64,000 nt of DNA from Octopus vulgaris (taxonomy: Eukaryota), in contig OX597818.1 in the NCBI GenBank assembly GCA_951406725.2, positions 73,656,001-73,720,000 on the forward strand. Direction: 5' to 3'. This document shows, one piece after another, positions 245-51,190 of the stretch. Every line of letters starts with the position of its first letter. Position 1 is the first letter of the stretch. A model generated the notes under the pieces. The model ran no database searches and was not told where the DNA came from. It worked only from the letters and a program-made list of their open reading frames with translations. Made by a program: the position numbers and the translations under genes.

Positions 245-640
245 TAAATGGGTGCAGGACGTCAAAAAAAAAACGTGAACATGAAGAACGAGCACGGGAA
301 GAACAAAAACCTGGAAAACGAACATTTTTTTCCGAACATCGAAAGAAACAAATAAAGAAACGAAACAGGCAACATAAAGAACAATCCCTTCATCAATTCA
401 CCCCTGTTTTATCTACTCCGCGTTTCGAACGCTGGACCAAGACGCGTGTTCGTTCAAACAGTCGTTCCCGCAAAGCAAATAAAATAAAATTTGGGATTTG
501 CGGAGGGATAACGTGGTAACAAAAACAGGACAGTAAGAACAAAACAGTAAAAACAAACAGTAAGTGATGTTAAGCTATAACTAGGTGAAGTGGTGAACGC
601 TGGAGAAAGGAGCTTTGACAGGAAACAGGCGATGCATGTG
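245..640 (-). mobile_element. Penelope-like pLTR/3' tail fragment with half-conserved hammerhead motif
   Basis: Minus strand GAAC..GTTC-GAAA-C-GCGGA-GTA (410-462) plus TTGATGAAGGG; T-rich tail runs into (TA)n at ~240. Confidence 0.45.
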
Positions 641-690
641 TATATCCATATATATATATGTATGTACATATATGTATGTATATATTCATA

Positions 691-1078
691 TTTTTGGAAG
701 CACTCCGTCGGTTACGACGATGAGAGTTCTGGTTGATCCGAATCAACGGAACAGCCTGCTCGTGAAATTAACGTGTAAGTGGCTGAGCACTCCACATACA
801 CGTGCAACCTTAACGTAGTTCTCGGGGATATTCTGCGAGACACAGAGAGTGACAAGGCCGGCCCCTTGAAATACAGGTACAACAGAAACAGGAAGTAAGA
901 GTGAGAGAAAGTTGTGGTGAAAGAGTACAGCAGGGATCACCACCATCCCCTGCCGGAGCCTCGTGGAGCTTTTAGGTGTTTACGCTCAATAAACACTCAC
1001 AACGCCCGGTCTGGGAATCGAAACTGCGATCCTATGACCGCGAGTCCGCTGCCCTAACCACTGGGCAATTGCGCCTCC
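691..1078 (-). mobile_element. tRNA-derived SINE (octopus OR-like)
   Basis: Minus strand head GGAGGCGCAATTGCCCAGTGG (A box) ... GTTTCGATTCC (B box), then ~300 bp body; flanked by TA tracts. Confidence 0.85.
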
Positions 1079-1265
1079 ACCATATTCACATATATATATA
1101 TATATATATATATATATATATATATATATATATGTGTGTGTGTGTGTGTGTGTGTGTGTGTGTGTATGCATGTATGTATGTGTAAATACACATATATACA
1201 TATACACACACATATATGTATATATATATATATATATACTTCTGTTTTATAAATGTCAATGTTTG

Positions 1266-1358
1266 TGAAGAAGAAGAAGAAGAAGAAGAAGAAGAAGAAG
1301 AAGAAGAAGAAGAAGAAGAAGAAGAAGAAGAAGAAGAAGAAGAAGAAGAAGAAGAAGA
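1266..1358. repeat. (GAA)n microsatellite
   Basis: About 30 GAA units. Confidence 0.99.
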
Positions 1359-1424
1359 ATGAGGAGGAGGAAGAGGAGAGAAGCATAGGAGAGAAAAATG
1401 ACAAAGAGGTAAGAAAAGAAGAAG

Positions 1425-2225
1425 AATAGCAAGTGCGAATGATATTAGGTTCTGAAAGAAGTAGGACCAAAATTACTGAATGGATCCTTATGATTTTCGG
1501 AATTTAGATTCAATTCAGAAGAGCAGATATAATTGTGGTATGGTTGGTTTGATTTGGAGGGAGCTCAAAGGGGGCATTCACCACCCCTGAACATTCATAA
1601 ATTTCCAATGCTGATGAAATTTCCACCATAAGTAATTGACACAAATCAAGGAGTATTCCCCACGTTTCTGCTTCTTATGAGGATTCTAAGACCCCCTAAC
1701 TCCCAAATTTTAGTCATTTATTATGATCCAAAACAAAGTCAAATATACTGAATGGATCTTTATGAAATTTGGAAATTATATTCTATTCATAGGGGCGGAT
1801 GTAATGCAGCATCTGTGAATGTGAGGGAGCATAAATTTTTCCTTTTTTTGTAGCTTTTATCAGATAGAGTGGACATCAGAGATAGTTTTGTTTTTTTACT
1901 TTCTGTCTTTGTTACATGAGTATAATATTCTGAAAATTTCGAGTTATCTTGCTAAGATTTTGCAATGTACACTCAAAAGATATTTTTCTCATTTAACTAA
2001 TCAAAAATAAAGTATTAACAAAGTTCGTAAAAATCTACATATTGACGAATACATTGTCAATAAATCATTTAATATATAATTTCTGCTTTAAATTTAAAGA
2101 GAAAATTTCGCCATTAACAAATGATATAAATAAACTTTTTTAAATATTTCATTTTAAAGAACAAAAAGAAAGAATGAAGTAGGCACTGGGCCAGACGAGC
2201 ACTTTGGTGCACTTTCGTGCACTCA
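1425..2225 (-). mobile_element. Possible Helentron-associated non-autonomous element
   Basis: Internal diverged direct repeats (ACTGAATGGATC.TTATGA at ~1475 and ~1747); terminal hairpin GTGCAC-TTTC-GTGCAC at 2207-2222. Confidence 0.3.
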
Positions 2226-47950: not shown

Positions 47951-47964
47951 TATATATATATATA

Positions 47965-48970
47965 GCCAAAATTACTAGCTATGCCGACAACACAAAAGTA
48001 GTACAAATAGTCAAGGGACCCTCTGATGCTAATTTTCTACAGAAAGACCCAAATGCCATATATGAATGAGCTGAAGACAACAACATACAATTTAATGCAG
48101 AGAAATTCCAAGCTTTCTGCTACCAGCTGATTAGTGCACAGAATTCACAACAACGATACTTTGTTTGGACCAAAAGGAGCGGCAATCCTAGAATTACAAA
48201 CCGTGCGTGATCTTGGGATTCATATGAGCAACCATGCCTCGTTTCACATGCATGTCTCTAAGACGGTTGTAGTGTGAAGCGAATGGACGGATGGACCCTG
48301 AGAACCTCCAGAACAAGGGACCAGGAAACTTTGCTGGTCCTATGGAGGGCACTTGTCTTCACCCGTCTGGGCAACTGCTCTCAACTATGGTCGCCTTACA
48401 GTGTAGGATTTGTATGAGAAACTGAGGCAGTTCAGCGATACTACATGACGAGGATTGCATCGATGAAACAGCTGAGTTACTGGGAGAGACTGAAAGAGCT
48501 ACGACTTTACTTCTTGGAGCGAAGACGTGAGAGGTATGTAGTGATATATGTGTGGAAGATACTGGAAGAGTTGGCTCCAAACTTTGGAATTGGCAGTTAT
48601 AACAGACTTCGAGTCTCTGCACTGTTCCGATGGTCCCAGTTGTCTCATCTAACAAGAGGATCATGTGCTGTAATAGTAATGGATTCAAGGGACCACAATT
48701 ATTTAACTCCTTGCCAAAACACCTGAGCGAACTCCATGTAGAGTGAGTAGTTGTTTTCAAGAAACAGCTTGACTTCTTGCTATTCAAGATCCAAGATAAA
48801 CCAATATCAAAGCAGGAAACTCAAAGGAGGGTAGGGGTATCGATCTCCCTCATTCACCAAAAGCCAATCCCATAGAACTGGTCAATTCAAAGGTGATAAT
48901 ACAGGCGGTGCCCCAGCATGGCCACGGCCTCAGGGCTGAAACATATCAAAGAATAACAGAATAAAAGAAT
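47965..48970 (+). pseudogene. CR1-group LINE ORF2 3' part with 3' tail
   Basis: SYADNTKV (YADD box), WAEDNN.QFNAEKFQ-like, VRDLGIHM, LSYWERLKELRLYFLERRRERY; tail GGCGGTGCCCCAGCATGGCC..GAAACA plus (AGAATAA)n. Confidence 0.9.
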
Positions 48971-49580
48971 ATATAGTTATGCATAAATACACACCACACA
49001 CACACACATACATATATATATATATGCATATATATGCCTACATACATACATACATACATATATATATATATGTATATACGTACATATATACATATATATA
49101 TTTCTAAGTATATATATATATATATATATATATATATATATATATATATATATATACTACACTCACACATGTACGTGTACATACCTATATATGTATATAT
49201 GTAGTTTCCTTTCCCATTTTTAATTGAGAGCTAATTTTTTTAGCGGTTCTTTTTGTCGTAGCAAACATTTGAAAATTGTCAGCAGGTCTTGCAAGTTCTC
49301 ATTCTCTTAGATATCGTGACCAATCGTAGTGTATGATTGATAATTTGCATTCACTCTCCAAGAATCCAATTTCAGGTAACCTTTGATCCAGACGGGTCGG
49401 TATATAACCTATTGCTCTAGTATCTTTGGTATTGGGTTTGCAAACCCATATCTGTACTCAAATGTTTCCTTTTTCTCTCCTATTTTTTCAGTATACTGGT
49501 GTCGAGTGGGTCGTGTTTTCCACAAGATATTTTATGTGCTAATATATATATATATTTATATATATATATATATATATATA

Positions 49581-50886
49581 CTAGCAGTATAACCCGGATT
49601 TGCCCGGGATTAAGTTAGGATTATTTCCAACCAAACTAAGTAACATCAACGTCAAATTTGGGCGGAATCTGTTAAAATTGGTTTATACATACATATATAT
49701 ATATATATATATATATATATATATATATATATATATATATATATAAAACATAATACAATATAATATAAATAATATAAATACATATGGGCAACATACACAC
49801 ACACAAACATACACACACACAAACATACACACTCGTACGTACATACACCTATTGCATATATGTTTTTTGATATTGCATACATGTCCAAAAACTTAAATGA
49901 ATGGGAAAATGTTGGTAAATTTGTAGATTAACACTCGCACGATTTTCACTAAAAGAAAATCGGAATTTTTGCGTGGAATCACGTACTCTGGCCTCCTAAT
50001 TTGCTACAAAACCCTTTTTGTGTGCCGAAAAATGGGGTGCGGTGTGGTGGAAGCCACGGACATTGTACCCATTTATATTGTGTAATTCACTGACAAATTG
50101 TTTCTCTGTTGTTTTAATAAATTTATATTGTGTAATTCACTGACAAATTGTTTCTTTGTTGTTAAATAAATGGATTCTCAGCAAAGCACTTTTTTCTTCG
50201 GCGTAAAATAAAAACAAAATTCTTTCGCGCCCAATGCAATGTGTGTGTGTGAGAGGGGTGAGAAACATGGACGATTTAACATAAATAAATGATTTAAAAT
50301 ATATTTTAATTGTTGTGTGAGAAAGTATATATAATCTGATTATAAAATTTAGTGCATTTCAAAAACATCCCAAATTTGAAGATTATATCTCGTGTTTAAG
50401 AAGAAACAAAACATTTTACATATTTTATTTTGTTAAGCGCTATCAAACTCCATCCCTCTCTCCGTCTCTCCGTCTTTCCCTTACACATATTTTTTTTTAC
50501 TTTCTTGTTAGACGATGTCAAATACTCTCTCTCCCTCACACGCACACACATTCATCAACACACAACTTCTCTCTCACACACACACACATACATCAACACA
50601 CAACTTCTCTCTCTCACATACACACATACATACATCAACACACAACTTTTCTCTCTCTATCTCACACGTACACACAGACTTTCACTTCAAAATTGGTAAA
50701 AGTTATGGTTGAAAATAGATTTTTACCGCTATCCACGGGAGCCACGGGAAGCAGTAAGTTGCCAAAACCCAGGTAGGATGGTGACGAATGTCCTCCTAAA
50801 ATTGGAGCGACATGCGTACTAATTTGTGGACGTGCATAAATAACATTCACGTATACACACACATCCTGGCTTTTGCATATACAAAT
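49581..50886 (-). mobile_element. Non-autonomous Helitron containing internal tandem repeats
   Basis: Minus 3' end CCCGGGCAAATCCGGGTTATACTGCTAG|T at 49581; degenerate 5' end ~50886; 50-bp duplication at 50071-50170; ~40-bp triplication at 50525-50680. Confidence 0.75.
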
Positions 50887-50920
50887 ATATATATATATAT
50901 ATATATATATATATATATAT

Positions 50921-51190
50921 ATATTCTGTTGTGTCTGGGGAGAGTCATTTTCTTTTTGTAACACACTCACCGGTAAAATTTTCACTTTTTTATGTTTATT
51001 TTCCTAAAATTTTCGTTGCGTCTAGCAACCTTTTCAATACTTTTTACTCTGTCCGTTAATTACACTGCGTTCCCTTTTATGTTAAATTATAAGGCACAAA
51101 AAAGAAAATGACTCTCCCCAGACACAACAGAATATGCTTCAACACACGAACTCATATAAAGAATCTTGCAAACAAAATCCCAAAAACAAA
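50921..51190. mobile_element. TA-flanked fold-back unit with ~39-bp arms and a hammerhead-like motif
   Basis: Arms 50921-50959 / 51096-51135; minus TA-TTGAAAA-G-GTTGC-TAGAC-GCAAC-GAAA-ATTT-TA at 51004-51040. Confidence 0.7.

What the first reader, a model, noticed from the sequence alone, without database searches (positions are those of the whole stretch)
245..51190. Recurrent hammerhead-tail-microsatellite module: candidate microsatellite-targeted, ribozyme-carrying retroelement system
Seen: about 10 hammerhead-like motifs of different sequence at 410-462(-), ~14846-14906(-), 16585-16642(-), 29375-29413(+), 34263-34297(-), 35409-35438(-), 37061-37103(+), 37466-37550(+), ~38360-38385(-) and 51004-51040(-). 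All except 16585 are followed 30-200 nt downstream, on their own strand, by a junction with a dinucleotide, mostly (TA)n, tract; most have no ORF attached. Established: Penelope-like elements carry minimal type I hammerheads in their pLTRs, and non-autonomous hammerhead retroelements (retrozymes) exist in metazoans. Inference: several pLTR-only families are mobilised in trans by PLE RT/GIY-YIG and prime in TA microsatellites. I cannot tell whether these particular families are already described.
Basis: partly seen in the sequence, partly recalled or inferred. Interest (0 to 1): 0.72.

Follow-up and report, generated by a model that had tools for sequence, protein, structure and literature searches.

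The report
Split-core hammerhead in Naiad-type retroelements
Most of these spots are decayed tail ends of Penelope-type jumping genes, which are known to carry self-cutting RNA motifs and to land in TA repeats, but one belongs to a family of thousands of copies whose predicted self-cutting RNA has its strands in an unusual order and is likely the ribozyme that Naiad jumping genes were reported to lack.

Summary
Nine of the ten sites are copies of repeat families; 14846 is single-copy and unsupported. Eight families carry type I hammerheads in Penelope-like-element (PLE) tails, two of them behind GIY-YIG ORFs. TA proximity is real. All this is published PLE biology, and most window copies are decayed. 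The exception is 410-462: it is not type I. Its family (ribozyme at 376-467, minus strand) has the hammerhead strands in non-circular order. The GAAA-before-CUGAnGA pattern has 9,735 genome matches against 44 for the control. Stems I, II, III and an extra helix covary across subfamilies. Stem II takes its 5' strand from far upstream, so the core is open between A9 and G10.1, which fails the type-SGC definition. Two unrelated families share this wiring; one is the 3' end of autonomous Naiad elements, reported to lack canonical hammerheads. Truncated copies pile up at the predicted cut. Cleavage is untested, and the Naiad link for the 410 family rests on architecture only. This scan already noted this ribozyme on other DNA of this genome and others; those notes corrected my first (SGC) reading, and I retested it here.

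The parts
201..630 (-). 5'-truncated copy of a non-coding unit of about 720-840 nt (410 superfamily), ending on (TA)50 at 101-200
   Evidence: unit length
376..467 (-). Split-core, non-circularly permuted hammerhead; this copy decayed (C3 to U, stem I broken)
463..467 (-). 5' strand of stem II (G10.1 at 467); pairs 5 of 5 with 427-431
454..461 (-). 5' strand of extra helix P0; pairs 7 of 8 with 404-411
434..446 (-). Block S: stem III strand 446-442, predicted cut after C at 441, stem I strand 440-434
419..431 (-). Block G: stem II 3' strand, GAAA at 426-423, stem III strand
390..403 (-). Stem I strand and CUGAnGA core (396-390), followed by a small predicted hairpin (389-376)
14846..14906 (-). 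Claimed hammerhead; single-copy, no core, not supported
16489..16696 (-). Old low-copy PLE-type tail with type I hammerhead (16585-16642), palindromic stem III in the family; no TA junction
29250..29567 (+). Tandem-type repeat with type I hammerhead in the family; window copy lost part of the core; inverted piece at 29000-29146
34158..34361 (-). High-copy short tail with minimal type I hammerhead (34263-34297), fixed 3' end on (TA)n
35350..35999 (-). 3' end of a coding PLE: GIY-YIG remnant 35621-35999, degenerate type I hammerhead 35409-35438
36875..37125 (+). Repeat with type I hammerhead in the family; window copy lacks the cut site
37126..37607 (+). 3' pLTR of a young coding PLE (C-terminal GIY-YIG) with type I hammerhead and long stem II (37466-37550), ending on (TA)20
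38245..38520 (-). Old repeat with type I hammerhead in part of the family
50924..51191 (-). Inverted-arm repeat with U3-A8 variant type I hammerhead (51004-51040)

Best explanation
The sites are 3' ends of several Penelope-like retroelement families, and the one at 376-467 is a decayed copy of a non-coding family whose predicted self-cleaving hammerhead has a non-circular strand order and an opened core, likely mobilised in trans by Naiad-type proteins. Shown: the strand order is stem II 5' strand, extra helix, cut-site block, GAAA block, CUGAnGA block; the helices covary; the same wiring ends autonomous Naiad elements; 3' ends sit in a TA-like tail followed by (TA)n; 5' ends vary, with inversions and partial tandems. 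Inferred: a read-through or tandem transcript self-cleaves; a GIY-YIG endonuclease nicks (TA)n; the RT primes near the tail and copies to the cleaved 5' end or stops earlier. Copies that start at the cut lack the upstream strands and could not cleave again; tandem or circular templates would rebuild a whole ribozyme. The type I families follow the published PLE scheme.
For: Pattern count 9,735 against 44. 49-row alignment: 87% of cells paired, 188 cells changed on both sides against 69 +/- 8 shuffled, 36-49% paired when slid. Distal stem II: mean 4.5 Watson-Crick pairs, 39 of 48 copies with 4 or more, against 1.6 and 1 of 48 for a matched control window, and 1.9 for the SGC pairing. Own-subfamily strands pair 4.4-4.8 of 5, cross-subfamily 2.0-2.9 (5 groups). 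A second, unrelated family has the distal stem II (5 loci) and 0-1 pairs for the SGC stem in 8 of 8 loci. Published Naiad_Obim, Naiad_Ovul and coral Naiad_Amil ends show the same order with other stems (by eye). That motif has 273 matches against 0 here, and 1 of 20 loci reaches a Naiad RT C-terminus. 5' ends: 20 of 72 copies start at -3..+13 of the cut against 7 at -50..-4 (P 4e-7); 12 against 4 in the first 29 unselected loci (P 7e-5).
Against: No cleavage data. The window copy is broken. Eckert et al. assume CUGAnGA and its stem II strand cannot be separated, and this model breaks that link. No sequence homology between the 410 family and a Naiad ORF was found. Craig et al. call cephalopod Naiads long inactive, yet subfamily B is 98-99% identical, so the driver is not identified. 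The pile-up of 5' ends could be RT stalling on structure; only 5 of the 20 start within 3 nt before to 1 nt after the cut. Rows are related, so shuffle counts are not probabilities. Four other Naiad ends seen (CGi, Olur, Mcor, Tama) show no such motif by eye, and Esco only in part. Nested folding of single copies gave no signal (z -0.6 to +0.1).
Confidence: 0.74

Rival explanations
1. The 410 ribozyme is a plain type-SGC hammerhead: stem II forms with the strand right after CUGAnGA.
For: Block order is S, G, C. A 3-4 pair stem with G10.1-C11.1 can be drawn in most 410-superfamily copies (96% of cells paired).
Against: Two of the four pairs were fixed by my search pattern and the stem is mostly G-U; 3 of 48 copies reach 3 Watson-Crick pairs. 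It cannot form in the second family and has at most 2 pairs in 20 Naiad copies. The downstream stretch folds as its own hairpin in 39 of 48.
Confidence: 0.08
2. The motif is a conserved structure derived from a hammerhead that no longer cleaves, serving as an RT stop or binding signal.
For: Opened core; 5' ends spread over 0-13 nt after the predicted cut; PLE hammerheads cleave poorly in vitro (PMC4209133).
Against: U16.1-A15.1 kept in 47 of 49 rows; core letters kept in three unrelated families; the second family came from a descriptor, not from the 410 sequence.
Confidence: 0.1
3. The ribozyme is as described, but the 410 family is moved by canonical C-terminal-EN PLEs, or rides in Helitrons, not by Naiads.
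For: Young coding canonical PLEs exist here (37466 family, 96-98% identical). In 2 of 25 family-A loci a helicase-like ORF (Helitron-type by recall) runs into the unit start.
Against: The wiring is shared with Naiad tails, not with the canonical PLE tails seen here. Truncation, inversion and TA ends are PLE-like. Both helicase loci share one junction and may be one event.
Confidence: 0.15
4. One reading: all ten sites are one new system of ORF-less, microsatellite-targeted type I hammerhead elements.
For: TA proximity; 34263 family ends on TA in 11 of 12 unselected copies against 5.3% background.
Against: Two families are tails of coding PLEs, one site is single-copy, one is not type I, and solo PLE hammerheads and TA preference are published.
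Confidence: 0.04

Closest known systems
Type-SGC hammerhead (HRIMA-1; Eckert et al. 2023, PMC10085705; read: find passages and parts 3-5 of 8; supplements not opened)
   Same: Cut-site block, GAAA block and CUGAnGA block in the order S-G-C; short linker from stem I to stem II; all core letters.
   Different: Stem II 5' strand is a fourth, far-upstream strand, so the A9-G10.1 link is open. The extra helix joins the region before S to the region before stem I. A hairpin follows CUGAnGA. Found in thousands of animal genomic copies, whereas they found no SGC in genomes of known organisms.
Naiad PLEs (Craig et al. 2021, PMC8557442; read: passages, section 6, supplement parts 1 and 24 and search hits)
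   Same: (TA)n preference, 5' truncation, partial tandems, inverted 5' pieces. Published Obim, Ovul and Amil ends carry the same wiring.
   Different: They report no canonical hammerhead, only 'core' or 'half-core'. The 410 family has no ORF and other stem sequences.
Minimal type I PLE hammerheads (Cervera and de la Pena 2014, PMC4209133; read: passages)
   Same: Eight of the window's families: type I order, extra base after A9, palindromic stem III in most, U3-A8 variant, mostly single truncated copies.
   Different: Nothing essential; 37466 and 29375 have long stems II. The 410 family does not fit.
Non-LTR retrozymes (Cervera and de la Pena 2020, PMC7229834, passages; Li et al. 2026, 10.64898/2026.07.22.740005, part 1 of 5 and passages)
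   Same: Non-coding, hammerhead-bearing, PLE-related, head-to-tail junctions.
   Different: 410 unit is 720-840 nt, not about 300; mostly dispersed truncated copies; ribozyme not type I; circles not shown.

Membership tests
Type-SGC hammerhead (410 family) | Blocks in order S, G, C | tested here: met
Type-SGC hammerhead (410 family) | Core letters CUGAnGA, GAAA, UH | tested here: met
   G and C cores intact in 17, 22 and 19 of 25 copies of subfamilies A, B, D; window copy has U3
Type-SGC hammerhead (410 family) | Block C unbroken: stem II strand directly after CUGAnGA | tested here: not met
Type-SGC hammerhead (410 family) | Helix joining the outer sides of stems I and II | tested here: inconclusive
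   A different covarying helix (P0) is found; the SGC helix was not counted and their figures were not seen
Type-SGC hammerhead (410 family) | Site-specific self-cleavage | not testable with these tools
   Indirect only: 5' ends of copies
Minimal type I PLE hammerhead (other sites) | C-G-S order with intact core and three stems in the family majority | tested here: met
   Met for 16585, 29375, 34263, 37061, 37466; variant for 51004; mixed for 38360; degenerate for 35409; not met for 410 and 14846
Minimal type I PLE hammerhead (other sites) | Located in the 3' pLTR of a coding PLE | tested here: inconclusive
   Shown for 37466 and 35409; a sister motif of 34263 lies behind a GIY-YIG (L241); not found for the others
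Naiad PLE (410 family) | ORF with N-terminal GIY-YIG and C-terminal RT | tested here: not met
   No such ORF within 1.5-4.5 kb upstream of 75 matches
Naiad PLE (410 family) | (TA)n preference, truncation, partial tandem, inverted 5' copy | tested here: met
Non-LTR retrozyme (410 family) | Short tandem repeats, each with a type I hammerhead | tested here: not met
   Ribozyme not type I; one two-ribozyme tandem at 836 nt (L342) among 70 loci
Non-LTR retrozyme (410 family) | Expressed as monomer circles | not testable with these tools
   Only contigs were available

The most novel reading that the evidence does not exclude
A hammerhead topology outside the six block permutations: four strands, core opened between A9 and G10.1, held by outer helices. 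It is the self-cleaving ribozyme of many Naiad retrotransposons and of thousands of non-autonomous partners, and the cut defines the 5' end of the RNA that is reverse-transcribed.
Probability: 0.62. Interest if true: 0.86.

Novelty: new variant of a known kind. Interest (0 to 1): 0.74.

Why it matters
It would overturn the assumption that the hammerhead core strand CUGAnGA must be joined to stem II, place a non-circular hammerhead in animal genomes, and explain why descriptor searches missed ribozymes in Naiads. The pile-up of insertion ends at the predicted cut also makes the open question of what hammerheads do in PLE transposition directly testable. The finding as first written (type I hammerheads, TA targets) is known biology.

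Tried and rejected
Rfam scan: no hammerhead in the rows shown, only microsatellite look-alikes. The repeat finder was swamped by microsatellites. Type I, II and III readings of the 410 family failed on inspection. My first reading, plain type SGC (notes), was dropped. L292, L337 and L338 matched the pattern but are a type I family and were left out of the counts. Pfam found nothing on the 37466-family ORF; GIY-YIG there rests on motifs and tblastn among my own loci. A profile of the 16585 family did not find 14846. No autonomous ORF was found for the 410 superfamily. Sequencing runs: no RNA holder listed; contigs cannot show ends or expression. Nested folding was uninformative for a pseudoknotted fold. 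PMC5785218 (Lunse et al., dimers) is not held and was not read. Literature searches that found no description of this wiring; subscription journals are not covered, and the supplements of Eckert et al. were not opened and might hold related forms.
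Full report
Setting. The window is G000:C5:73656001-73720000 of a 2.8 Gb, microsatellite-rich animal genome. I searched each site's family in the genome, drew 80 evenly placed 10 kb stretches (800 kb) as an unbiased sample, and wrote hammerhead descriptors for all block orders.

Observation. 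Nine of ten sites have (TA)5+ 22-181 nt downstream, against 0.154 for random window positions. In the unbiased sample a strict descriptor found 6 type I and 1 S-G-C motif, and none in 5 shuffles. A relaxed one found 12, 2 and 1 G-C-S, with 0-2 hits in each of 10 shuffles. So hammerheads are a real and common feature of this genome. The window copies are mostly decayed: none passes the strict descriptor and only 16585 the relaxed one.

Site by site (first-look candidates in brackets; lower bounds). 34263 (2,191): minimal type I. Its 3' end is followed by TA in 28 of 30 best copies and 11 of 12 unselected copies that reach the end, against 5.3% background; 12 hammerhead-covering hits per 800 kb. 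37466 (1,549): type I with long stem II, 96-98% identical copies. 14 of 25 end on TA, at least 10 others run on into more element, and upstream lies an ORF ending in a GIY-YIG-type domain. 35409 (758): 185 nt behind a GIY-YIG remnant in the window; degenerate in 12 fetched copies; the window's TA tract is not the family's end. 29375 (2,027), 37061 (1,329), 38360 (679) and 16585 (29): type I in the family majority. 51004 (2,144): U3-A8 core, a variant already reported in PLEs; 8 of 25 at TA. 14846: no family. Cervera and de la Pena describe such single truncated PLE hammerheads, and Craig et al. give (TA)n as preferred PLE targets. This part of the finding is known.

The 410 family (4,071). The majority has one CUGAUGA, and it lies 3' of the GAAA, which lies 3' of the cut-site strand. 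That is the S-G-C order of Eckert et al., who found no such RNA in genomes of known organisms. A pattern for GAAA followed 20-28 nt later by CUGAnGA has 9,735 matches against 44 for the reversed control; 3 of the 70 loci I examined were an unrelated type I family. I aligned the window copy and 48 of the 75 matches, chosen by eye as complete at the 5' side; the other 27 were truncated, deleted, duplicate or of the other family. The cut-site strands are outside the pattern, yet stems I and III pair in 86% and 91% of cells, with changes on both sides at 5 of 7 and 4 of 5 pairs.

Not plain SGC. Earlier notes of this scan said the core is split and tied the motif to Naiads; I had been reading it as SGC. 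The test agrees with the notes. The strand before GAAA pairs with a strand about 41 nt upstream in 93.5% of cells, with 3 of 5 pairs changed on both sides. It forms 4.5 Watson-Crick pairs on average, against 1.9 for the strand after CUGAnGA and 1.6 for a matched control window (48 copies). The stretch after CUGAnGA folds on itself in 39 of 48. A descriptor then turned up a second, unrelated family with 5-6 pair distal stems in which the SGC stem has 0-1 pairs in 8 of 8 loci. G10.1 is thus supplied by a separate strand and the A9-G10.1 link is open. Eckert et al. assumed this link cannot be broken, so the motif resembles type SGC but is not a member. In the window copy stems II and III are whole, P0 is 7 of 8, stem I is broken and C3 is U.

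Naiad link. Craig et al. report that Naiads lack canonical hammerheads and mark some as 'half core', including Naiad_Ovul. By eye, the published 3' ends of Naiad_Obim and Naiad_Ovul and of the coral Naiad_Amil show all strands in the same order with different, perfectly pairing stems. Esco fits in part; CGi, Olur, Mcor and Tama ends do not show it; the Omin consensus shows none either. The Obim-type motif has 273 matches here against 0. Of 20 loci, 19 are short; L362 reaches the decayed C-terminal RT of a Naiad with no endonuclease in between. For the 410 family itself I found no ORF. Its unit is about 720-840 nt with the tail joined to the unit start, so its tie to Naiads is by architecture and target only.

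Sign of cleavage. Of 72 copies, 20 begin from 3 nt before to 13 nt after the predicted cut and 7 in the 47 nt before that; in the first 29 unselected loci it is 12 and 4. Limits: the pattern hides ends beyond +13, 40 loci were hand-picked for variety, ends were placed by local alignment to other copies, and RT stalling could give a similar picture. Several copies start exactly at the cut (L293, L308; L370 in the Naiad family).

Mechanism. Shown: structure by covariation, copy number, ends, Naiad tails. Inferred: self-cleavage of a read-through or tandem transcript, priming at a nick in (TA)n, and copying to the cleaved end. A circle as template for more-than-unit copies was proposed for PLEs in PMC4209133 and is untested here. 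Contigs of runs from organisms coded C and D bridge the ribozyme, so it is not confined to this assembly.

Verdict. The finding as written is largely known PLE biology with one false site. One site holds a hammerhead wiring that I did not find described in seven literature searches. New variant of a known kind; interest 0.74. This scan had noted it before; the support given here comes from my own calls.

Noticed in passing
L074, L242, L262, L286, L296, L297, L328, L351: A second repeat family, unrelated in sequence to the 410 family, with the same split-core wiring and TA-flanked 3' ends.
   Followed up: partly
L045 and L050, upstream of the 410 unit: A helicase-like ORF (Helitron/Pif1 type by recall) runs directly into the unit start at one shared junction, with no Helitron remainder seen downstream.
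   Followed up: partly
window 50924-51191 and L057-L080: The 51004 family is a fixed inverted-arm structure; several copies in non-TA sites show apparent 9-13 nt target duplications (L058, L062, L067, L068).
   Followed up: no
window 15400-16570 (+): Decayed PLE reverse transcriptase, tail to tail with the 16585 hammerhead element.
   Followed up: partly
window 36875-37647: Two different hammerhead-bearing tails in series on the same strand, each bounded by TA tracts; different families often share one TA tract (also L004, L039, L266).
   Followed up: no
window 427-467 family; linkers beside stem III: The internal loop between stem III and P0 has A- and G-rich strands that resemble a loop E or kink-turn motif (recalled motif; not tested).
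   Followed up: no
Supplement of PMC8557442, 3' ends of Naiad_CGi and Naiad_Olur: These oyster Naiads end in a different conserved motif that looks like an HDV-type ribozyme (recalled resemblance), so Naiads may use more than one ribozyme class.
   Followed up: no
window 20459-22005 (+), 48418-48726 (+), 62529-63206 (-): Decayed ORFs of other transposons (transposase-like and LINE-like by recall).
   Followed up: no
window 16866-17010: Long near-perfect inverted repeat built of dinucleotide tracts; gives spurious microRNA matches.
   Followed up: no
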